A stretch of 32,007 nt of DNA from a virus. The translations under genes were made by a program, and so were the position numbers. The stretch lies in the UHGV virus genome UHGV-1480848; one strand, given 5' to 3'. The notes under the pieces were generated by a model that ran no database searches, was not told the origin of the DNA, and saw only the letters and a list, made by a program, of their open reading frames with translations. Numbering within the stretch: position 1 is the stretch's first letter; each line of letters opens with the position of its first letter. Below, piece by piece: positions 1 to 32,007 of the stretch.

Positions 1-18
1 ATATAAAGAGGTAAATCA

Positions 19-177
19 TTTGATACTGCTGAAAAATCCGGGAGGAAAGTGGATCAAACGGGATTTGATGGGATAAAACAAACAGTTATGACGTAAAACA
101 GTGTTATGCGCACAACATGTGATTTGATACTACTGTCGCAAAGAAAGCTAAAAACGAAAAAATATTTGATACTACTG
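19..177 (+). repeat. Three direct copies of 13-mer TTTGATACT(G/A)CTG; putative transposase end-binding sites (L1/L2/L3-like)
   Basis: Copies seen at 19-31, 123-135 and 165-177, each followed by an A-rich tract; bases 32-70 resemble the Mu left-end sequence CCGGGAGG...GATGGGAT as I recall it. Confidence 0.6.
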
Positions 178-234
178 ATTTCTGCGATTTTAACGTTTTA
201 AACAGGTTAAAAAACCAGCCGCGGGCTATTGGAA

Positions 235-819
235 TTAGCCCGCCTTCGATTCTAAACTACTTGAGAGTTTATCGCTTTCAATTTCTGCCAAAATCTCTCT
301 AACTCTTTCATCCGATAAATGATCTAAAAGTAGAGCTGCTGCACGTTTTCGTCCTTCAAGTTGGATTAGTTCTTGATTCTCTGGTTCAAGTAACCGTGAC
401 AAGTACTTAGCTCCATTTAGCGCGAGGATTTTTGATAATCGCTCTGCCTCTGATGCTTCTAAAGCACTTAGTATAGCAAGAAGGCGCTGTAGCGTTATAT
501 CTAGGGGCAATTGGACGTTTTCATCTATTTTAGGTGATATTGGTTCTATATCCTCCTTGCCAAAAACAAGCCAATCAATGCTCACCCCTTCTGCAAAAGC
601 AATCTGACCAGCTACTTGTAGAGATGGTGTCGCATCTTTCTCAAAGTAGTTGTTAAGTGTTGAGAACGGTAGCCCCCACGCCTTCGCCACGGCAGTCTTG
701 GAGCGCCCGCGCATTAACATGGCTAGGCGCTCTTTAATGCTTTCTTTTTGAAACACAGGAAAAGAAAAATCACTTTCTTTTTCAGTGCTTCTTTCTTTTC
801 TGTTAACTATATGATTCAT
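235..819 (-). CDS. Prophage repressor (c-like), HTH DNA-binding protein
   Basis: Only leftward gene, divergent from ner as in Mu; HTH-like segment SKTAVAKAWGLPFSTLNNY. Start taken at internal ATG (MNHIV...) because the ORF-track N-terminus is an implausible hydrophobic extension; alternative start 870. Confidence 0.7.
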   Translation of the reverse strand: MNHIVNRKERSTEKESDFSFPVFQKESIKERLAMLMRGRSKTAVAKAWGLPFSTLNNYFEKDATPSLQVAGQIAFAEGVSIDWLVFGKEDIEPISPKIDENVQLPLDITLQRLLAILSALEASEAERLSKILALNGAKYLSRLLEPENQELIQLEGRKRAAALLLDHLSDERVREILAEIESDKLSSSLESKAG

Positions 820-959
820 AAAGAAATATCCTTTTGTAGATAAAAACCACCAAAGAAAGAGATAAAACACCTTTACTTTTCTTTTGTAGTGATCAAATAT
901 TTATATGTAGAGATTATCCGGCGGTGTTATCCGCGCAGATAACTTTTAAGGATAAACGA
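820..959. promoter_or_regulatory. Divergent operator/promoter region between repressor and ner
   Basis: AT-rich 140 bp with direct repeat CTTTTGTAG at 831-839 and 881-889, IHF-like core gATCAAatatTTA at 890-902, and imperfect palindrome GTTATC-N6-GATAAC at 926-943. Confidence 0.55.
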
Positions 960-1196
960 ATGATGTCTATAAATGAAGTTGTTAAACAGGACTGGCACCC
1001 CGCGCATGTTGTCGCGGCGGTGCATGTAAAAGGTTTTACTTTACGCTCTCTGTCCATTGAAGCCGGTTTAAACCAGGATTCTTTAAAGAATGCCCTGTAC
1101 CGCAAATGCCCAAAATATGAGCGCATTATTGCTGATGCTATTGGTGTTGCTCCGGAGGAGATCTGGCCCAGCCGTTACGCTCGTAAGGTGGTATAA
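960..1196 (+). CDS. ner: Ner-like DNA-binding protein (negative regulator of early transcription)
   Basis: Translation carries Ner/Nlp-family motifs (DWH..V.A, IIA.A.G..PE.IWPSRY); ATG at 960 preceded by AAGGA; ORF-track start 924 is GTG without a good RBS. Confidence 0.85.
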   Translation: MMSINEVVKQDWHPAHVVAAVHVKGFTLRSLSIEAGLNQDSLKNALYRKCPKYERIIADAIGVAPEEIWPSRYARKVV

Positions 1197-1198
1197 AA

Positions 1199-3286
1199 AT
1201 GTTTGTATCAGTTAATGAGCTTGTAGGGCTACCAGGTATGCCGGGAACTGCGCAAGGGGTGCGGTATTCCATAAGGAAACTGGCCTCATCTGAGCATTTC
1301 AGGCGCAAACGTGCGGGTTCAAAAACCATTGAATACAGCATCGACTGCCTCCCTCCGATTACACAACGGGCGTTACGTGAGCGACATGTAGCTCAACTGA
1401 TGGCAAGCGCCCCGCAGGAGATAACTACCCAGCCTCCTGTAAAGCGTGAACGCAAACAAAATGTTGTACAGCCTGTTGAGGCATATCGCGGTTCGCCACA
1501 ATTGGTAGAAGAGCGTCTGAATGCGCTTACGGAAAATCAACGTAAAGTTGCAGAAGCGCGCATTGCTCTTGTCTGTGAAGTTCTACGAATTAGCCAGGAG
1601 CCGGGATTCAGTTGTGCCAGCGCTATACGTTTTATTGTGTCGCGGTTAGCACAGGGTAACCTGGAAGAACGCCTGGAATCTTTGGTCATTACTGCTAATG
1701 CCCGTAAAGGAAAAGAGCGAACTCTGAGCGCAATTACGCTCAAACGTTGGATAGCTGCGTTTAACAAAGCACAGAATGCCGCAGAACGACTGCTGTTACT
1801 GGCACCAGGAAAGCGCGACGAAATAAAACCGGAAGAAATTAGCTGGCTGCCTGAATTTCTGGCGCAGTATCGTCAGGCTAACGGCAGGCCTATGTCTGAA
1901 GCCTATGAGGATTTTGTCGCTGATTGGCAGCGTCGCCATGCGGACGAACCATACATGCTGGAGGTGATGCCTTCCTATGATGTTGTCCGGTATGCCATGA
2001 AAAAACTGCCGGAAGTGGTGAAACAAAAAGGGCGCGTTACCGGCAGTGAATACCGTCAGCTTGAAGGATTCACCCGCCGCGACTGGACAGCTATGCCGGT
2101 GAATTATGTCTGGATTGGTGACGGTCACGGTATGAAGCTGAAATGTGCGCATCCGGTTCACGGGCGTCCATTTTCACCGGAAGTTACGTTTGTGATCGAC
2201 GGTGGAACCCGGTTTGTGGTTGGCTGGAGTCTTGATCTTGCGGAGAACGTGTTCGCTGTTGCCGGGGCGATACAACACGGCATTCGCAATCATGGAAAAC
2301 CATTCCTGTATTACTCGGATAATGGTTCCGGTGAAACGGCAGATATGCTGGATAAAGAGATCGTCGGGATTCTGCCCCGTCTGGGGATTAACCACCCCAC
2401 CGGTATTGCGGGAAATCCGCAGGGACGCGGCATTATTGAACGCCTGAACCGAACATTACCGATGCGTATAGCCAGGAGGTATCGCACCTATTTCGGCAAG
2501 GGTGCTGACCGGGAATCGTTGCGAGTACTTAATCGTGATCTGCGTTCAGCGTTTAATGCCCTGCAACAGGACAAGCCACTGAGCGCCCGTCAGAAAGCCG
2601 CAATGCGCGAGCTGCCGTCCTGGTCAGAACTGATTGAGGCTATCCGTGAGGGGGTGGAGTGGTACAACAACCGCCCACATTCTGAATTGCCGATGAAACC
2701 AAACGGAAAGCATTACAGCCCGGCAGAGTTCAGAAAAAAACGCTTAGCGGAAGAAGACACTGAAATTGAGTGGCTGAGTGATCTTGAGCTGCGCGACATG
2801 TTCCGCCCGATGGTGGAGCGTCCGGTAAGACGCTGCGAAATCCAGTGGCTGAACAATATTTACTACGCGCCAGAGCTGCGTGATGAACATGGTCGCAAAG
2901 TACTTATCAGCTATGACATTCACGATGCCGAGCGAATTACGGTACGCCGTAAGGACGGTAGCTTTATCTGTGAGGCGATATGGAACGGCAATAAACGCGC
3001 AGCCTTTCCTGTCACGGCTGAATATCACAAACAACAGCAGCGTATTAAAGGCATGCGCAAGCGTGCTGAGGAAAAAATTCGTGATGCAGAGGATGAAGGT
3101 ATTCAGATTCTGGAACACAAACAGGCTGAACCCTGGCTGGATAATGTTTATCGCCCGGTTGGTAATACGGTAACCATCCGGCAACAGGATTATGAGGAAG
3201 ATTACGACGAAGATTATGAACGCGATTTCAGGCTGGGTTTGCAAAAACTTGCAGCCATACAGGAACAGGATGATCCGCTGGCCTGA
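1199..3286 (+). CDS. A: DDE transposase, MuA-like
   Basis: 695 aa directly after ner; Mu-transposase-like core (VWIGDGHGMKLK, NHGKPFLYYSDNGS) and acidic C-terminal tail. Confidence 0.93.
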   Translation: MFVSVNELVGLPGMPGTAQGVRYSIRKLASSEHFRRKRAGSKTIEYSIDCLPPITQRALRERHVAQLMASAPQEITTQPPVKRERKQNVVQPVEAYRGSPQLVEERLNALTENQRKVAEARIALVCEVLRISQEPGFSCASAIRFIVSRLAQGNLEERLESLVITANARKGKERTLSAITLKRWIAAFNKAQNAAERLLLLAPGKRDEIKPEEISWLPEFLAQYRQANGRPMSEAYEDFVADWQRRHADEPYMLEVMPSYDVVRYAMKKLPEVVKQKGRVTGSEYRQLEGFTRRDWTAMPVNYVWIGDGHGMKLKCAHPVHGRPFSPEVTFVIDGGTRFVVGWSLDLAENVFAVAGAIQHGIRNHGKPFLYYSDNGSGETADMLDKEIVGILPRLGINHPTGIAGNPQGRGIIERLNRTLPMRIARRYRTYFGKGADRESLRVLNRDLRSAFNALQQDKPLSARQKAAMRELPSWSELIEAIREGVEWYNNRPHSELPMKPNGKHYSPAEFRKKRLAEEDTEIEWLSDLELRDMFRPMVERPVRRCEIQWLNNIYYAPELRDEHGRKVLISYDIHDAERITVRRKDGSFICEAIWNGNKRAAFPVTAEYHKQQQRIKGMRKRAEEKIRDAEDEGIQILEHKQAEPWLDNVYRPVGNTVTIRQQDYEEDYDEDYERDFRLGLQKLAAIQEQDDPLA

Positions 3287-3358
3287 ATAAAAAACAGTCC
3301 GCGGGAACGGACTGTTAAGTAAAGGAAACAAAGCTGATTTGAATAAACGGAGAATAAT

Positions 3359-4291
3359 ATGACCGATATTAATGATGTTTTCAACACAATTAATGCGCTG
3401 ATTACTGACGGTGTAAAAACACAAAGCGCTATCGCCAAAGAAGCTGGCGTGTCGGAGGCCACTCTTTCTGAACTTCGCAAAGGCCGTTACAAAGGCGATA
3501 CCGAAGGGATGCACAACAAATTACTGATGTGGCATCAGGGCTGGCAGAAAAGTCTGGAGTTGCCCGGCACCCCACAACTTGTGGAAACACAGACCCTGCG
3601 TGATTTGCGTGAACTTTTTCAGACAGTGCGTGTTATGGGGTGTATCAGCGTTCTGGTGGGTGTGCCGGGGGTAGGAAAAACCGTTGCGGCCCGTGAATAC
3701 AGTAACCGCGTATCTAATACCTGGATGGTAACCCTTTCCCCTGCACACTCAACGGTGACGGAATGTCTGCTGGAACTGGCAGACGCGCTGGGAATTGATA
3801 ACCCGCAAAGGAATAAAGGCGCGCTGACCCGTGCCATTCGCAAAAAACTGAACGGTACACGCGGTCTGGTGATTGTGGATGAAGCTGACCACCTGAGCAT
3901 TGACGGGCTGGAACAATTACGTGCCATTCAGGATGCCACCGGAGTCGGGATGGTATTGATTGGTAACCCCAGTCAGTTAGCCAAAGCCACACATCGGGGA
4001 ACGGATGACCTTGCACGTTTGTTCAGTCGTTTCGCCAGGACAAAGCAACTACGTAAAGCCAAAAAGGCTGACGTGGTGGCAATTGCGAAAGCCTGGGGCA
4101 TTGAGGGCGAAGATGAATTATCACTCATGCAGAGCATCGCGGAAAAGCCAGGCGCATTGCGTGTATTAACTCACACGCTGAATCAGGCGTGGCTGGCAGC
4201 CAGCGGGAAAGGCGTTCCTCTGTCCAAAGGCTACATAAAAGCGGCTTTTAAAGAGGTTTACAGCAACCCGAAATTACTGAACTGGTGGTAA
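3359..4291 (+). CDS. B: Transposition ATPase / target DNA activator, MuB-like (AAA+)
   Basis: 310 aa; N-terminal HTH; Walker A GVPGVGKT; Walker B LVIVDEADHL; follows A. Confidence 0.93.
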   Translation: MTDINDVFNTINALITDGVKTQSAIAKEAGVSEATLSELRKGRYKGDTEGMHNKLLMWHQGWQKSLELPGTPQLVETQTLRDLRELFQTVRVMGCISVLVGVPGVGKTVAAREYSNRVSNTWMVTLSPAHSTVTECLLELADALGIDNPQRNKGALTRAIRKKLNGTRGLVIVDEADHLSIDGLEQLRAIQDATGVGMVLIGNPSQLAKATHRGTDDLARLFSRFARTKQLRKAKKADVVAIAKAWGIEGEDELSLMQSIAEKPGALRVLTHTLNQAWLAASGKGVPLSKGYIKAAFKEVYSNPKLLNWW

Positions 4292-4305
4292 GGGGATAAT
4301 AAATA

Positions 4306-10033: not shown

Positions 10034-10456
10034 ATGCAGCATGATTTATTTGAACACGATCCGGCAATTCGCCAGTTAATCGGACATATTGATAACATCC
10101 CGGCCCCGGAACTGGAATCACGCTGGCCCCGTTCGGTGGTTGATCTGATTGATGTTCTGGAAAACGAACTGAAACGCCAGAACGTCAGCAATCCCCGTGA
10201 GCTTGCCCGTAAACAGGCCGTTGCCCTGTCCTGTTTTCTGGGCGGACGGCAGTTTTACATCCCCTGCGGCGATACGATCCTGACCGCGTTACGCGACGAT
10301 TTGCTTTACTGCCAGTTCAATGGTCGTAACATGGAAGAACTGCGTCGCCAGTATCGCCTGTCCCAGCCGCAGATCTACCAGATTATTGCCCGCCAGAGAA
10401 AGCTGCATACACGACGTCATCAGCCTGATCTGTTCTCACCTGAAAGCCAGAAATAA
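10034..10456 (+). CDS. C: Late gene transcription activator C (Mor/C family)
   Basis: 140 aa; paralog of Mor by shared motifs; precedes the lysis and morphogenesis genes. Confidence 0.9.
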   Translation: MQHDLFEHDPAIRQLIGHIDNIPAPELESRWPRSVVDLIDVLENELKRQNVSNPRELARKQAVALSCFLGGRQFYIPCGDTILTALRDDLLYCQFNGRNMEELRRQYRLSQPQIYQIIARQRKLHTRRHQPDLFSPESQK

Positions 10457-10477
10457 CCGGCATCCTGCCGGTTATTT
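10451..10477 (+). terminator. 12-bp perfect hairpin overlapping the C stop codon; likely middle-transcript terminator
   Basis: AAATAACCGGCA-TCC-TGCCGGTTATTT; U-rich 3' arm; overlaps the TAA of C. Confidence 0.6.
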
Positions 10478-10480
10478 CCT

Positions 10481-10547
10481 GTCACCATAATCCCGCACCT
10501 GCCATCTGATTTTTTAGACTGCCATCAGAGCATTTTTTCAGGGAAGC
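10481..10547 (+). promoter_or_regulatory. Candidate C-dependent late promoter upstream of lys
   Basis: Intergenic region between the C terminator and lys; carries CCCGCACCT at 10493-10501 (also found upstream of I) and direct repeat TGCCATC at 10500-10506 and 10521-10527. Confidence 0.45.
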
Positions 10548-16163: not shown

Positions 16164-17463
16164 TCTGGCGTATGCCGCACGCCTCCCGCCAAAGGAGGCT
16201 GTCGCGTATTTCCGCGCCAAAGGCTACAACATCACCTGGAACTGGTACGAACAACTGGCAGACGCGCACGCCCGCGCCTTTACCGTTGCCAAAGCCACCC
16301 GGATGGATGTCCTGACCACAATCCGTGAGGAAGTGGAGCGGGCTGTCAGTGAAGGCATCACCCGTGAGGAATTTACCCGCACACTGGCCCCCCGGCTGCA
16401 AAAACTCGGATGGTGGGGAAAACAAATCATCGTGGATGCAGAGGGAAACGCAAAGGTAATCGAGCTGGGCAGTCCGCGTCGTCTGGCAACCATTTATAAC
16501 GTCAATACCCGTACGGCGTATGGGGCAGGACGTTATGCGCAGATGATGAATACCGCAGATTTGTATCCGTACTGGCAGTATGTTGCCGTTATGGATGGCA
16601 GAACACGCCCGGAACATGCGCGGCTGCACAATATGGTTTTCAGGTATGACGACATTTTCTGGCAGACGCATTACCCGCCCAATGGCTGGAACTGCCGCTG
16701 TCGCGTCCGGGCGGTGTCTGCGGCCCGCATGAAAGAACTGGGGCTACAGGTCAGTTATGGTGCGTCATTCATGAACACCCGCGAAGTGGATGCCGGTACG
16801 GATGAAAGCACCGGAGAGATTTTCCGCACATCGTCAACCACATTTGACAACGGTCGGGTAAAAATGACGCCGGATGTAGGCTGGTCATATAACCCTGGTT
16901 CGGCGGCATTTGGTACGGATCAGGCACTGATTCGAAAACTGGTGGAAATTCACGACGCGCAGCTGCGTGAGCAGGTTGTGCAGACACTGAATAACAGCCG
17001 GGAGCGTCAGCTTGCTTTTTCCCTCTGGCTTAAACGCCTGGCAGGATCACGTCAGGCCGGTCATGAAATCCGGGCGCTGGGTTTTATGACGGGATCCGTG
17101 GCTGAAGCCGTATATCAGCGCACCGGGAATATGCCAGCCCGTTTGCTTGTAATGAACGGGAAAAGTCTGGCGACCACTGCTGATGCCGCCCTGAAACCGG
17201 AAGATTTACAGCGTCTGCCGTCGCTGATGGCAAAACCACAGGCGGTATTGTGGGACAGGGAGAACCACCAGTTGCTGTATGTTGTGGCAACCCGCGACGG
17301 CACTGCAAAAGTTGTGGTCAGAACATCGCAGGCTGTCAGCAAACAGAATGACCGGGCGGATGTGCTGGTCAGTATCAGCCGCGTATCTGCACTGTCGCTT
17401 GAAGCCGCGATTGCTGACGGGATGATTGACATACTGGAGGGGCATGTGGAGGTGAATAAGTGA
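16144..17463 (+). CDS. F: Head morphogenesis protein, Mu F-like
   Basis: MuF-family motifs (RPEHARLHNMVF, YPPNGWNCRCRV); ATG 16144 overlaps the portal end by 20 nt; alternative GTG 16108. Confidence 0.8.
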   Translation: MPQQTIDLAYAARLPPKEAVAYFRAKGYNITWNWYEQLADAHARAFTVAKATRMDVLTTIREEVERAVSEGITREEFTRTLAPRLQKLGWWGKQIIVDAEGNAKVIELGSPRRLATIYNVNTRTAYGAGRYAQMMNTADLYPYWQYVAVMDGRTRPEHARLHNMVFRYDDIFWQTHYPPNGWNCRCRVRAVSAARMKELGLQVSYGASFMNTREVDAGTDESTGEIFRTSSTTFDNGRVKMTPDVGWSYNPGSAAFGTDQALIRKLVEIHDAQLREQVVQTLNNSRERQLAFSLWLKRLAGSRQAGHEIRALGFMTGSVAEAVYQRTGNMPARLLVMNGKSLATTADAALKPEDLQRLPSLMAKPQAVLWDRENHQLLYVVATRDGTAKVVVRTSQAVSKQNDRADVLVSISRVSALSLEAAIADGMIDILEGHVEVNK

Positions 17464-17471
17464 GTCTTGAT

Positions 17472-17930
17472 ATGAACGTTGCCGTGGATGTGCGACGTAT
17501 TCAGCTTGCACTGGATGAACTGGGAACCGTTACACGTGACCGCGCCATTCCCCGTGTGATGGCTGCGGCGCTGCTGTCATCCACGGAACAGGCATTTGAA
17601 CGGCAGGCAGACCCGGATACAGGGAAAGGCTGGGAAGCGTGGAGCGATTCGTGGCTGGCATGGCGTCAGGATCATGGTTTTGTTCCGGGCAGTATCCTTA
17701 CCCTGCATGGCGATCTGGCACGCAGCATTACCACCGATTATGGACAGGATTATGCCCTGATTGGTTCGCCAAAAATTTATGCTGCCATTCATCAGTGGGG
17801 CGGTACACCCGATATGGCACCCCGCCCGGCAGGCGTTCCTGCGCGTCCTTATATGGGGCTGGATAAGACCGGGGAACAGGAAATTTTTGATGCCATCAGA
17901 AAACGCGTCAGCACCGCTCTGAGGCAATAA
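17472..17930 (+). CDS. G: Virion morphogenesis protein, Mu G-like
   Basis: Follows F as in Mu; alternative GTG start 17460 overlapping the F stop. Confidence 0.7.
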   Translation: MNVAVDVRRIQLALDELGTVTRDRAIPRVMAAALLSSTEQAFERQADPDTGKGWEAWSDSWLAWRQDHGFVPGSILTLHGDLARSITTDYGQDYALIGSPKIYAAIHQWGGTPDMAPRPAGVPARPYMGLDKTGEQEIFDAIRKRVSTALRQ

Positions 17931-18126
17931 ACAGAATCAGGCATAAAATCAGCCGCACAGATTTTTTAAAACGCGCCACGGGATTTTTAAACCGGTATTT
18001 AACGGTGTATGAATCCCGTTTTATCTTCCTTCCACTTTCTTTCTCCAGTACTCAAATAGCATAACCCCAGATTTTCCCGCACCTCCCGCAAACTGACTGC
18101 TCATAAACCATGATGAGCAGCAGGAC
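17931..18126. promoter_or_regulatory. G-I intergenic region: candidate late promoter and candidate strong gyrase site
   Basis: 196 bp non-coding gap in an otherwise packed operon; 8-bp inverted repeat ACGGGATT (17978-17985) / AATCCCGT (18012-18019); CCCGCACCT at 18076-18084; GCTCAT/ATGAGC hairpin at 18099-18117 next to the I start. Confidence 0.5.
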
Positions 18127-19212
18127 ATGAAAAAACACGCGATTGGCATTGCCGCACTGAGTGCGCTGTCCATTGACGATGACGGCTGGTGCCAGCTATT
18201 GCCTGCCGGTCATTTCAGTGCCCGTGATGGTCGTCCGTTTGATGTGACAGGCGGTCAGGGGTGGTTCATCGACGGTGAGATTGCCGGGCGTCTGGTTGAA
18301 GGCGTTCGCGCGCTCAACCAGGACGTGCTGATTGATTACGAGCATAACCAGCTACGTAAGGACAAAGGATTACCCCCGGAACAACTCGTCGCGGCTGGCT
18401 GGTTTAACGCCGATGAAATGCAGTGGCGTGAAGGTGAAGGATTATTTATCCACCCACGCTGGACGGCGGCGGCCCAGCAGCGCATCGATGACGGCGAATT
18501 TGGTTATCTCTCTGCGGTTTTTCCGTATGACACCGACACCGGTGCAGTGCTGCAAATCCGCCTTGCTGCGCTGACCAATGACCCCGGTGCCACCGGCATG
18601 AAAAAGCTGACCGCACTGGCGGCAGACCTTCCCGACATCCTTCAACAGGAGAACAAACCCATGAATGAAACGCTGCGCAAGCTGCTTGCGCGTCTTGGGG
18701 TGACGGTCCCCGAAAATGCAGACATCACCGATGAACAGGCCAGCGCGGCCCTGAGTGCGCTTGATGCGCTCGAAACAGATGCCGGAAAAGTGGCGTCGTT
18801 ATCCGCCGAACTGGAAAAGGCACAGAAAGCCGCCGTTGACCTGACGAAATACGTCCCGGTGGAAAGCTACAACGCCCTGCGTGATGAACTGGCACAGGCG
18901 ACTGCACAAAGCGCCACAGCCAGCCTGAGCGCCGTTCTGGACAAGGCGGAACAGGAAGGCCGCATTTTCAAAAGCGAACGCACTTACTTGGAACAGCTTG
19001 GCGGTCAGATTGGCGTGGCGGCACTGTCGGCACAGCTTGAGAAAAAACAGCCCATCGCTGCGTTATCTGCCATGCAGACCACCACAGCGAAAATCCCGTC
19101 GCAGGAAAAACCGGCGGTGGCGGTGCTGTCTGCTGATGAACAGGCAGCAGTGAAGGCGCTCGGCATTACTGAGGCTGAGTATCTGAAAATGAAACAGGAA
19201 CAAGAAAAATGA
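18127..19212 (+). CDS. I: Head maturation protease / scaffold, Mu I-like
   Basis: 361 aa; N-terminal protease-like domain then Ala/Gln-rich helical scaffold-like C-terminus; lies before the major capsid gene. Confidence 0.85.
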   Translation: MKKHAIGIAALSALSIDDDGWCQLLPAGHFSARDGRPFDVTGGQGWFIDGEIAGRLVEGVRALNQDVLIDYEHNQLRKDKGLPPEQLVAAGWFNADEMQWREGEGLFIHPRWTAAAQQRIDDGEFGYLSAVFPYDTDTGAVLQIRLAALTNDPGATGMKKLTALAADLPDILQQENKPMNETLRKLLARLGVTVPENADITDEQASAALSALDALETDAGKVASLSAELEKAQKAAVDLTKYVPVESYNALRDELAQATAQSATASLSAVLDKAEQEGRIFKSERTYLEQLGGQIGVAALSAQLEKKQPIAALSAMQTTTAKIPSQEKPAVAVLSADEQAAVKALGITEAEYLKMKQEQEK

Positions 19213-26227: not shown

Positions 26228-27715
26228 ATGTTTGAAGATGCTTTAAATGCCGTTAATGCTGTCCGGGATAAAATCAGCGGTGGTAAGAAAACAACCGGCA
26301 AAGGCACGTTTCGTAACGTGCCGTTTCTCGTCATCGAGGAGCAAAAACAGGCTGGCGGACGTCGCCTGGTTAAACGCGAGTACCCGTTACGTGATACCGG
26401 CGGCGTCAATGACCTGGGGAAAAAGCTTCGCTCCCGTACATTCAGCGCCTGCATTCTGAACAGCAACGCAGAAACAGCCAGAGATGAAGCGGGTGCGCTG
26501 ATGGATGCTCTTGATGCTCCGGGCAGCGGTGAGCTGGTGCACCCTGATTTCGGCACTGTGGACGTCATGGTGGATTCATGGGAATGCCGCACTAAAGCGG
26601 ATGAACTGAATTATTACGCGTTCACCGTTACCGTTTATCCGTCGTTGCAGGATACTGCCCCGGACGCAGAGACAGACACCAGTGCAGCCGTACCGGCACA
26701 GGCCGTTGCTGTAACCGGTTCTCTGGGAGATACGCTGTCCTCTGTCTGGCAGACCGTAAAAGATGGCACTGCGGCGGCAACCGCCGTGATGGAAGCTGTA
26801 ACCGGTGTCATCGATGATATCAGTGATGCGGTGGACAATCTGGGGGTTACGCAGACTGTCAGTGGTCTGATGGGCTCGCTTTCCGCGATGAAAGGCTCTG
26901 TGACCAGCCTGATTAATCAACCTGCCATGCTGGCCTCCTCGCTGATGGGGGCGCTGTCCGGCGTTTCATCGTTATGCGATACCCGGACAGCATTTTCCAC
27001 ATGGAACCGTCTGGCGCAGCGATTCGAACGTCGCCATGCCGCCACCGCAGGCAGACAGGGGGCAATCACAACCTCGTACAACAGTCCGGTTGCAGAAAAA
27101 AATATTGCCACACTGAACTACGTCATGCTGGCAGCGGCGCAGACATACCGGGCAGAAGCTGCCAGCCAGGCACTGACTGCGGCACTGGATTTCAGTCGCC
27201 GGATGGATAATGCCGCCCGTGCACCTGTACTGGATGCCCCGTCCACCACAACCGGCACAGCCAGCGGGGCCAGCAGCACATCTGCTACCGTCACACAGGG
27301 ACAGTTACAGTTAACTGCCATAACCCCGGACGGCGGCTTTTCACAGGTATCCTTTTCAGACAGTGGTACAGCCACGCCCCCGGTATTTGAAAGTGTGTCC
27401 GATATCGGAAAAACAGCCGCCATGCTGGGGGCTGCACTGGATACCGTCATTCTGACGGCATCTGAGCAGGGCTTTTCGACAGACAGCGTTCAGCTTACGC
27501 AACTGCGTCTGCTGGTTGTTGCCGACCTGGAAAAACGCGGGCTGCAACTGGCGGGCAGTGAAACGCACCGCCTGCCGGAGACGATGCCTGCAATGGTGGC
27601 CCTGTACCGTTACACAGGAAACAGCCGGAACTGGCAACGGCTGGCCCGCAGGAACGGTATCAGCAACCCGTTGTTTGTTCCCGGTGGTGTCAGTATTGAG
27701 GTGATTAATGAGTAA
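26228..27715 (+). CDS. DNA circulation protein family (Mu N-like) tail/baseplate protein
   Basis: 495 aa following the tape-measure gene; Ser/Thr/Ala-rich linker. Confidence 0.75.
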
Positions 27716-31478: not shown

Positions 31479-32007
31479 TGTTTTATATTGATAACGACAG
31501 CGGCGTAACCGTCATGCCGCCCGTATCCGCCCAGCGTAGTGCTATCGTTCGCTGGTTTTCAGAAGGTGACGGGAATAATGTTATCACATGGCCCGGCATG
31601 GACTGGTTTAATATTGTGCAGGCGGAGTTATTAAACACGCTGGAAGAAGCCGGTATTCAACCGGATAAAACAAAATTAAACCAGCTTGCACTGTCCATTA
31701 AAGCCATCATGAACAAGAACGCGCTGCTGATAAAAAATAACCTCAGCGAAATTAAAACTGCCGGGGCATCAGCACAGCGTACAGCACGTGAAAATCTGGA
31801 TATCTGGGATGCCAGCCTGAACAAGAAAGGACTCGTTCAGCTAACCAGTGCCACTGACAGCCCCAGTGAAACGCTGGCAGCCACCGCAAAAGCGGTGAAA
31901 ATTGCGATGGATAATGCCAATGCCCGTCTGGCAAAAGACCGGAACGGAGCAGATATTCCCAATAAGCCGCTGTTTATCCAAAACGTCGGTTTACAGGAAA
32001 CGGTAAA
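31478..32007 (+). CDS. Tail fibre protein, N-terminal part (runs off the window end)
   Basis: Hand-translated from ATG 31478 (TAATG overlap): MFYIDNDSGVTVMPPVSAQRSAIVRWFSEGDG..., open to the window end; not in the ORF track because it has no stop. Confidence 0.65.
   Translation, partial: MFYIDNDSGVTVMPPVSAQRSAIVRWFSEGDGNNVITWPGMDWFNIVQAELLNTLEEAGIQPDKTKLNQLALSIKAIMNKNALLIKNNLSEIKTAGASAQRTARENLDIWDASLNKKGLVQLTSATDSPSETLAATAKAVKIAMDNANARLAKDRNGADIPNKPLFIQNVGLQETV

What the first reader, a model, noticed from the sequence alone, without database searches (positions are those of the whole stretch)
17931..18126. 196-bp G-I gap with dyad symmetry at the position of the Mu strong gyrase site
Phage Mu has a strong gyrase site in the G-I intergenic region at the genome centre, needed for efficient replicative transposition. 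Here the G-I gap is the largest non-coding stretch in the late region and lies about 18 kb from the left-end repeats. It contains an 8-bp inverted repeat (17978-17985 / 18012-18019), the late-promoter 9-mer, and a hairpin over the I ribosome-binding region.
Basis: partly seen in the sequence, partly recalled or inferred. Interest (0 to 1): 0.6.

Follow-up and report, generated by a model that had tools for sequence, protein, structure and literature searches.

The report
Phage Mu's known strong gyrase site

Summary
The window is a Mu-family phage whose late region is about 98-99% identical to phage Mu. The G-I gap (17931-18126) matches Mu 17860-18055 at 194 of 196 bases. It matches the 133-bp "Mu SGS" fragment used in published gyrase binding and Topo-Seq experiments at 131 of 133 bases (window 17883-18015). 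The gyrase cut site annotated in Mu maps to window 17950^17951.

The interpretation needs one correction. The dyad is not the gyrase recognition element. It starts 27 bp right of the cut, and with the U-run that follows it is the terminator of the upstream late operon, embedded in the SGS right arm.

Comparison with diverged Mu-like phages shows a ladder of helically phased T/A tracts that stays in place, while the dyad sequence does not. In a full-length E. coli prophage relative the cut lies at 49.4% of the genome (48.7% in Mu). The window lacks the right end.

Verdict: already known, low interest. One side observation: the same SGS sits next to a transposase only 22% identical to MuA.

The parts
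17460..17930 (+). Gene G (virion morphogenesis / neck protein). Its last ~43 nt form most of the SGS left arm.
   Evidence: ORF. Pfam Phage_tail_S, E 1.5e-42. Corresponds to Mu_31 at an offset of +71.
17888..17934 (.). SGS left arm (positions -63 to -17 of the Topo-Seq gyrase motif, with position 0 = 17951). One difference from Mu, at 17913 (A instead of G, position -38).
   Evidence: Mapping of the 133-bp Mu SGS fragment to 17883-18015. Motif geometry from PMC6379681. No notable A/T phasing. Reported dispensable (PMC13284261 citing Oram 2006).
17935..17970 (.). SGS core (G-segment, -16 to +19) with the annotated gyrase cut at 17950^17951 (AAAATC^AGCC). Identical to the Mu reference.
   Evidence: Mu misc_feature 'gyrase cut site' 17879^17880, offset +71. 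The centre of the 133-bp fragment is 17949.
17971..18029 (.). SGS right arm, a ladder of helically phased T/A tracts (ATTTTTTAAAA, ATTTTTAAA, TATTTAA, TATGAAT, GTTTTAT). This arm is wrapped on the GyrA C-terminal domain and presented as the T-segment. Identical to Mu.
   Evidence: The 50-bp window 17980-18029 ranks 17th of 31,958 for 10-11.25-bp A/T periodicity. An 18-nt direct repeat is spaced 21 bp. Tract positions are conserved in lineages with G/I proteins only 51-57% identical. Role from PMC11626157 and PMC13284261.
17978..18028 (+). It is embedded in the SGS right arm (+27 to +77).
   Evidence: RNA fold -19.8 kcal/mol, z -2.98. Inverted repeat I1. TransTermHP terminator in the Mu record at 17908-17953, which is window 17979-18024. 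Diverged relatives carry a different hairpin plus T-run nearby.
18048..18114 (+). Late promoter PI (C-activated). Conserved box CATAACCCC at 18060-18068, -10 hexamer CAAACT at 18089-18094, inferred start near 18101.
   Evidence: 66/67 identical to the annotated Mu PI feature, and in register with Plys, PP and Pmom. No sigma-70 -35/-10 pair found, as described for Mu late promoters (PMC2582627).
18097..18120 (+). 8-bp stem and 8-nt loop hairpin whose 3' arm covers the I ribosome-binding site (GAG at 18115-17). T at 18104 (C in Mu) adds one base pair.
   Evidence: -15.7 kcal/mol, z -5.1, against -14.7 in Mu. Inverted repeat I3. RBS annotation.
18127..19212 (+). Gene I (head maturation protease, with the internal scaffold gene Z).
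   Evidence: ORF. Pfam Mu-like_Pro, E 1.6e-97. Corresponds to Mu_32.

Best explanation
The gap holds three known, partly overlapping functional elements of phage Mu.

1. The strong gyrase site (SGS). Host DNA gyrase binds about 130-150 bp centred on the cut at 17950^17951. The right arm (about 17971-18029), with its helically phased A/T tracts, wraps around a GyrA C-terminal domain and is presented as the T-segment. This gives unusually efficient and processive supercoiling. Because the site lies at the middle of the roughly 36-37 kb prophage, the supercoiled loop that grows from it brings the two phage ends together for synapsis, which allows rapid replicative transposition.

2. The rho-independent terminator of the lys late transcript.

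3. The C-activated late promoter PI and the ribosome-binding region of gene I.

Shown here: the sequence identity, the positions of the elements, the phasing and the conservation pattern. Taken from the literature on the near-identical Mu sequence: gyrase binding and cleavage, and the replication role. Inferred: that these hold for this particular phage.
For: - Identity to Mu: 194/196 in the gap and 100% to phage PhiR68_1. From 17914 to 18031, which covers the core and the whole right arm, there are no differences from the Mu reference.
- The Mu records annotate a gyrase cut site, a terminator, the late promoter and the RBS at the corresponding positions.
- The window is 131/133 identical to the fragment with published gyrase EMSA and Topo-Seq data.
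- Right-arm A/T phasing is in the top 0.05% of the window, while the left arm is ordinary. This matches the published asymmetry.
- Central position: 49.4% in a relative bounded by a target-site duplication, 48.7% in Mu.
- The gap length (195-204 nt) and the T/A-tract ladder are conserved in lineages whose G and I proteins are only 51-57% identical.
- Literature: deleting the SGS delays Mu replication by about 100 min, and the centre is the optimal position (PMC10052514). The SGS is needed for pairing of the prophage ends (PMC3820752). The SGS is the top-scoring gyrase motif in the Mu genome (PMC6379681).
Against: - There are no gyrase cleavage or binding data for this exact sequence or phage.
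- My crude scan with the published consensus (strong/weak base pattern and base matches) did not single the site out: about the top 5%, z about 2. The real weight matrix was not available.
- The right end of the element is outside the window, so centrality is inferred from relatives.
- The transposase here is only 22% identical to MuA, so dependence of this phage's replication on the SGS is extrapolated.
- The published 133-bp fragment differs from both the window and the Mu reference at 17952. The reason is unknown.
Confidence: 0.93

Rival explanations
1. The dyad (17978-18019) is itself the gyrase recognition or cleavage element, for example as an extruded cruciform. This is what the finding's title implies.
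For: The dyad is real and stronger than chance. It lies within the functionally essential right arm, at +27 to +68.
Against: - The annotated cut is 27 bp to its left.
- The dyad arms are not conserved in a 72%-identical prophage or in the more distant lineages, whereas the phased T/A tracts are. In those lineages a different hairpin plus T-run occurs nearby, as expected for a terminator.
- Published models explain right-arm function by phased bending signals wrapped on the GyrA C-terminal domain, not by a dyad.
Confidence: 0.07
2. The gap is only an ordinary operon boundary (terminator plus promoter) and has no special gyrase function in this phage.
For: Terminator and promoter signals account for about 120 of the 196 nt. 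The crude consensus scan was unremarkable.
Against: The core and right arm are base-for-base identical to the experimentally defined Mu SGS. The only SGS difference from the Mu reference is in the dispensable left arm. Right-arm phasing is extreme.
Confidence: 0.03
3. The gap encodes a small protein, like 'gene 31.5' annotated in phage D108.
For: D108 annotates a 42-codon ORF at the equivalent of window 17936-18064.
Against: The D108 start codon arises from an A-to-G change that is absent in the window and in Mu. There is no plus-strand ORF of 20 aa or more in the gap. The region is not conserved as coding sequence in diverged relatives.
Confidence: 0.01

Closest known systems
[quoted passage not shown] 2003, 2006)
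   Same: Same locus between G and I. 194/196 identity across the gap. Core and right arm are identical to the Mu reference. Same annotated cut-site sequence, same phased right arm, and about the same distance from the left end.
   Different: One substitution in the left arm (17913) and two downstream of the SGS (18032, 18104). The SGS here sits in a mosaic phage whose early region is unrelated to Mu at the DNA level and whose transposase is 22% identical to MuA.
SGS-like central sites of Mu-like prophages (Oram & Pato 2004, J Bacteriol 186:4575; cited in PMC3820752, paper itself not readable here)
   Same: The diverged G-I gaps I retrieved keep the gap length and the T/A-tract ladder at the same positions.
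   Different: Those copies differ in the cleavage-core sequence and in the terminator hairpin. The window belongs to the Mu-proper sequence type, not to these variants.
Plasmid strong gyrase sites (pSC101, pBR322) and the genome-wide Topo-Seq gyrase motif
   Same: A ~130-bp gyrase footprint with a central cleavage region and periodically phased flanks (PMC6379681).
   Different: According to the literature the plasmid sites are weaker or cannot support Mu replication (PMC4982056). The Mu site is distinguished by its extended right arm. There is no sequence homology.
[quoted passage not shown]
   Same: PI is 66/67 identical, with the conserved box and -10 hexamer in register with the other late promoters. 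The terminator lies at the position annotated in Mu.
   Different: T instead of C at 18104 adds one base pair to the RBS hairpin.

Membership tests
Mu strong gyrase site (SGS) | Sequence homology to the experimentally defined SGS (core plus arms) | tested here: met
   131/133 to the 133-bp fragment of PMC6379681. 194/196 to the Mu gap. No differences from the Mu reference between 17914 and 18031.
Mu strong gyrase site (SGS) | Cleavage-site sequence at the annotated cut (Mu 17879^17880) | tested here: met
   Maps to window 17950^17951 (AAAATC^AGCC), identical to the Mu reference. The partner cut on the other strand was not resolved from the sources available.
Mu strong gyrase site (SGS) | Right arm with an extended set of helically phased bending (A/T) signals | tested here: met
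   17980-18029 ranks 17th of 31,958 50-bp windows. The left arm is at about the 29th percentile. 21-bp-spaced direct repeat D1.
Mu strong gyrase site (SGS) | Location in the G-I intergenic region | tested here: met
   Flanking ORFs match Pfam Phage_tail_S and Mu-like_Pro and correspond to Mu_31 and Mu_32.
Mu strong gyrase site (SGS) | Central position between the two phage ends | tested here: inconclusive
   The right end is outside the window; the window stops at Mu coordinate 31987. The cut is at 49.4% in the full-length E. coli S6 relative bounded by a 5-bp duplication and at 48.7% in Mu. The extrapolated range for this phage is about 48.9-50.2%.
Mu strong gyrase site (SGS) | Strong, site-specific gyrase binding and quinolone-induced cleavage | not testable with these tools
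   Shown for the near-identical Mu sequence in the literature.
Mu strong gyrase site (SGS) | Required for rapid replicative transposition and end synapsis | not testable with these tools
   Mu lacking the SGS is delayed by about 100 min (PMC10052514). End pairing depends on the SGS (PMC3820752).
Rho-independent terminator (end of the lys late transcript) | Stable stem-loop immediately followed by a U-run, at the 3' end of an operon | tested here: met
   -19.8 kcal/mol, z -2.98, then UUUUAUCUU, 48 nt after the G stop codon. TransTermHP feature in the Mu record. The simple scan missed it because the helix is interrupted by internal loops, so no single continuous stem with a 3-8 nt loop passes that scan's rule.
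Rho-independent terminator (end of the lys late transcript) | The structure, rather than the sequence, is conserved in relatives | tested here: inconclusive
   Diverged copies carry a different hairpin abutting a T-run (-12.6 to -16.2 kcal/mol in L026, L027, L029 and L030; -13.5 in L025). It is shifted in position, it was not clearly found in L028 and L031, and its z-scores are weak.
Rho-independent terminator (end of the lys late transcript) | Mapped RNA 3' end | not testable with these tools
   From my own memory, Zha, Zhao & Howe 1994 (J Bacteriol) mapped the 3' end of the lys transcript between G and I. I could not read that paper here.
C-dependent Mu late promoter (PI) | Conserved activator box upstream of a -10 hexamer at fixed spacing, with no -35 hexamer | tested here: met
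   66/67 to the annotated PI. The box [C/A]ATAA[C/T]C[C/A]C and the -10 hexamer are in register in Plys, PI, PP and Pmom. No sigma-70-type promoter match. Architecture as described in PMC2582627.
C-dependent Mu late promoter (PI) | Transcription dependent on C protein | not testable with these tools
   Shown for Mu PI in vitro (PMC4461284). A C homologue is encoded at window 10034-10456.

The most novel reading that the evidence does not exclude
The overlap of the lys-operon terminator with the SGS right arm may be functional rather than incidental. Heavy late transcription that stops exactly on the gyrase site would deliver positive supercoils, and therefore gyrase, to the SGS. The helically phased T/A-tract ladder, rather than the cleavage core or the dyad, would then be the portable determinant that works with unrelated transposases (22% identity here). 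What is compatible with this: a hairpin plus T-run stays next to the conserved ladder in most of the diverged lineages, even though its sequence changes.
Probability: 0.12. Interest if true: 0.4.

Novelty: already known. Interest (0 to 1): 0.08.

Why it matters
The Mu SGS is the best-studied strong gyrase site. It is used as the reference substrate for gyrase mechanism, cryo-EM and Topo-Seq work.

Two points add a little. First, across lineages the phased T/A-tract ladder of the right arm is the conserved feature, and the dyad is not. Second, an identical SGS is combined with a very different transposition module, which fits a mechanism that depends on gyrase and not on a particular transposase.

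Tried and rejected
1. Scanning the window with the published 133-bp gyrase consensus, as a strong/weak base pattern and as base matches. It was not discriminating: the SGS frame was in about the top 5%, and GC-rich coding stretches scored higher. The real weight matrix (sheet DS10 of PMC6379681) was cut off in the stored supplement, so I could not reproduce the published score of 14.3.

2. The simple promoter/terminator scan found nothing in 17400-18600. The terminator helix is interrupted by internal loops and falls outside the rule. PI lacks a -35 hexamer by design.

3. Rfam scan of 17700-18400 at E <= 1: no hit.

4. Small-ORF reading (D108 'gene 31.5'): rejected, because the start codon is absent and there is no plus-strand ORF.

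5. Plain A/T Fourier power was not significant in the most distant gaps (P 0.7-1.1), although the tract positions line up. The statistic is weak for long T-run/A-run blocks, so I relied on the aligned positions instead.

6. The primary papers (Pato 1990, PMC55030; Pato 1994, PMC44337; Oram & Pato 2004, PMC438558; Oram 2006, PMC1347280) are not held. Their content is cited only through later open papers or marked as my own memory.

7. The second cut of the 4-bp stagger could not be placed from the sources available. It is either 17946^47 or 17954^55 on the other strand.

Full report
**What the window is.** The window is a Mu-family (Muvirus) genome. From about base 4294 to its end it aligns with phage Mu (AF083977 / NC_000929) at about 98% identity. 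It aligns similarly with D108, SfMu, PhiR68_1 and several Yersinia "vB_YpM" phages. The first 4.3 kb do not match Mu at the DNA level. They match Yersinia phages vB_YpM_5/6 and E. coli prophages instead. In the G-I region the window coordinate equals the Mu coordinate plus 71.

**Checking the observation.**
- Gene G (17460-17930, Pfam Phage_tail_S) ends in TAA. Gene I (18127-19212, Pfam Mu-like_Pro) starts with ATG. The gap between them is 196 nt.
- It is the largest non-coding stretch of the late region.
- The 8-bp inverted repeat ACGGGATT / AATCCCGT sits exactly at 17978-17985 and 18012-18019. It is the outer part of 20-nt arms that are 80% complementary. The RNA fold is -19.8 kcal/mol, z -2.98, with 0 of 200 shuffles as stable, and UUUUAUCUU follows.
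- CATAACCCC lies at 18060-18068.
- The hairpin CTGCTCAT / ATGAGCAG (18097-18120; -15.7 kcal/mol, z -5.1) covers the I ribosome-binding site.

**What it is.** The gap is 194/196 identical to Mu 17860-18055 and 100% identical to phage PhiR68_1. Within this stretch the Mu record annotates four features:
- a gyrase cut site at 17879^17880, which is window 17950^17951;
- the late promoter PI at 17977-18043, which is window 18048-18114;
- the I ribosome-binding site.

The 133-bp "Mu SGS" DNA used for gyrase EMSA and competition assays by Sutormin et al. (PMC6379681, supplementary sheet S2) maps to window 17883-18015 with 131/133 matches. One difference is at 17913, in the left arm and inside gene G. 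The other is at 17952, where the window agrees with the Mu reference. Between 17914 and 18031 the window has no difference from the Mu reference. The cleavage core and the whole right arm are therefore unchanged.

**Anatomy in gyrase-motif coordinates** (position 0 = 17951; geometry from PMC6379681):
- left arm, -63 to -17: 17888-17934, mostly the 3' end of G;
- core, -16 to +19: 17935-17970;
- right arm, +20 to +66: 17971-18017.

The right arm carries a ladder of T/A tracts at helical spacing. The 50-bp window 17980-18029 ranks 17th of 31,958 in the whole window for 10-11.25-bp A/T periodicity. The left arm is unremarkable. An 18-nt direct repeat, CACAGATTTTTTAAAACG / CACGGGATTTTTAAACCG, is spaced 21 bp, which is two helical turns. 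This asymmetry matches the literature. Removing the right arm abolishes preferential gyrase activity, whereas the left arm is dispensable (PMC13284261 citing Oram 2006). In the cryo-EM structure the right arm wraps a GyrA C-terminal domain with its A/T repeats facing the protein, and it presents the T-segment (PMC11626157).

**The dyad is a terminator, not the gyrase centre.** It starts 27 bp right of the cut and spans +27 to +68, so it lies within the right arm. I compared diverged copies of the G-I junction:
- a 72%-identical E. coli prophage (TUM9757);
- IMG/VR contigs whose G and I proteins are 55-57% and about 51% identical to the window's.

In all of them the gap length is kept (195-204 nt). 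The T-run/A-run blocks sit at the same gap positions (about 31-34, 52-54, 64-68, 75). The columns that are invariant across all six sequences aligned cluster in the proximal and middle right arm (window 17965-67, 17970-71, 17984-88, 17990-91, 17995-18002). The dyad arms are not conserved. In most of these copies a different hairpin abuts a T-run nearby, which is how a terminator evolves. The cleavage-core sequence is also not conserved in the distant group. From memory, which I could not check here, Zha, Zhao & Howe (1994) mapped the 3' end of the lys transcript to the G-I interval.

**Promoter and leader.** The four 67-bp late-promoter features of the Mu record align in register. The box [C/A]ATAA[C/T]C[C/A]C is at feature positions 13-21 and the -10 hexamer at 42-47.

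| Promoter | Window coordinates | Identity to Mu feature |
|---|---|---|
| Plys | 10474-10540 | 65/67 |
| PI | 18048-18114 | 66/67 |
| PP | 27307-27373 | 67/67 |

It also fits the published description of C-dependent promoters that lack a -35 hexamer (PMC2582627; PMC4461284; no sigma-70 match).

The PI -10 hexamer (CAAACT, 18089-18094) puts the inferred start near 18101, inside the 5' arm of the RBS hairpin. That hairpin would therefore be complete only in RNA reading through from upstream. This is an inference and was not tested.

**Position in the genome.** The window ends at Mu coordinate 31987, so the right end is missing. A full-length relative in E. coli S6 is bounded by a 5-bp duplication (ATTAA) within patD and is 36,095 bp long. 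Its SGS cut lies 17,837 bp from the left end, at 49.4%. In Mu the cut is at 48.7%. Extrapolating either right-hand part to this window gives 48.9-50.2%. The site occurs in 44 of 5,426 complete E. coli genomes.

**Mechanism.** The following comes from the literature on the near-identical Mu site.
- Gyrase binds the SGS strongly and supercoils processively. A plectonemic loop grows with the SGS at its apex and aligns the two halves of the prophage, so that the ends synapse.
- Deletion delays replication by about 100 min, and the central position is optimal (PMC10052514).
- The SGS is needed for end pairing in the prophage domain (PMC3820752).
- The published weight matrix ranks the SGS first in the Mu genome.

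**Exclusions.** There is no plus-strand ORF of 20 aa or more in the gap. The D108 "gene 31.5" start codon is absent here and in Mu. There is no Rfam match.

**Verdict.** The transposase encoded at 1199-3286 is only 22% identical to MuA, so an identical SGS is serving a very different transposition module. That fits a mechanism dependent on gyrase rather than on a particular transposase, but it is a side observation.

Noticed in passing
window 1-4293 (transposase ORF 1199-3286): The early region does not match Mu at the DNA level, and the transposase is only 22% identical to MuA. The late region is about 98% Mu. The early region matches Yersinia phages vB_YpM_5/6 at high identity and E. coli prophages at 85-98%. 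This is a mosaic in which an unchanged SGS sits next to a very different transposition module.
   Followed up: partly
window 1-30; L004 2549-2600 and 38640-38700: In the full-length E. coli S6 relative the prophage is flanked by a 5-bp duplication (ATTAA) in patD. Its termini read 5'-ATAGAGAGG...GCGCGCTTTA-3', not the canonical Mu 5'-TG...CA-3'. By analogy the window's left end is at about base 3 (ATAAAGAGG...).
   Followed up: partly
window 17952: The published 133-bp 'Mu SGS' oligonucleotide (PMC6379681, sheet S2) has C where the window and the Mu reference have G, two bases right of the annotated cut. This could be a strain polymorphism, a cloning variant or a nu-type mutation.
   Followed up: no
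window 17936-18064 (equivalent of D108 17914-18042): The D108 record annotates a 'gene 31.5' lying over the SGS and terminator. Its ATG exists only because of an A-to-G change at the equivalent of window 17945. It is absent in Mu and in the window, so the annotation is probably spurious.
   Followed up: yes
window 18104: T here, against C in Mu, D108 and the other copies aligned, adds an A-U pair to the hairpin over the I ribosome-binding site (-15.7 against -14.7 kcal/mol).
   Followed up: partly
window 18089-18104: The PI -10 hexamer (18089-18094) puts the inferred transcription start near 18101, inside the 5' arm of the RBS hairpin. The hairpin would then be complete only in read-through RNA from the lys operon, and could damp translation of I from read-through transcripts. 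This is an inference only.
   Followed up: partly
window 17913: A G-to-A change relative to Mu turns Ala into Thr at G residue 152 and lies at position -38 of the SGS left arm. The E. coli A21 prophage shares it.
   Followed up: no
window 31986-32007: The window stops about 21 bp after the left boundary of the invertible G segment (Mu 31966, which is window 31986). The sequence may break at the invertible segment.
   Followed up: no
L026-L031 gap positions about 1-30 after the G stop codon: In the distant Mu-like lineages the sequence at the position of the Mu cleavage core is unrelated to AAAATC^AGCC, although the right-arm ladder is conserved. Where gyrase cuts in those phages is unknown.
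   Followed up: no
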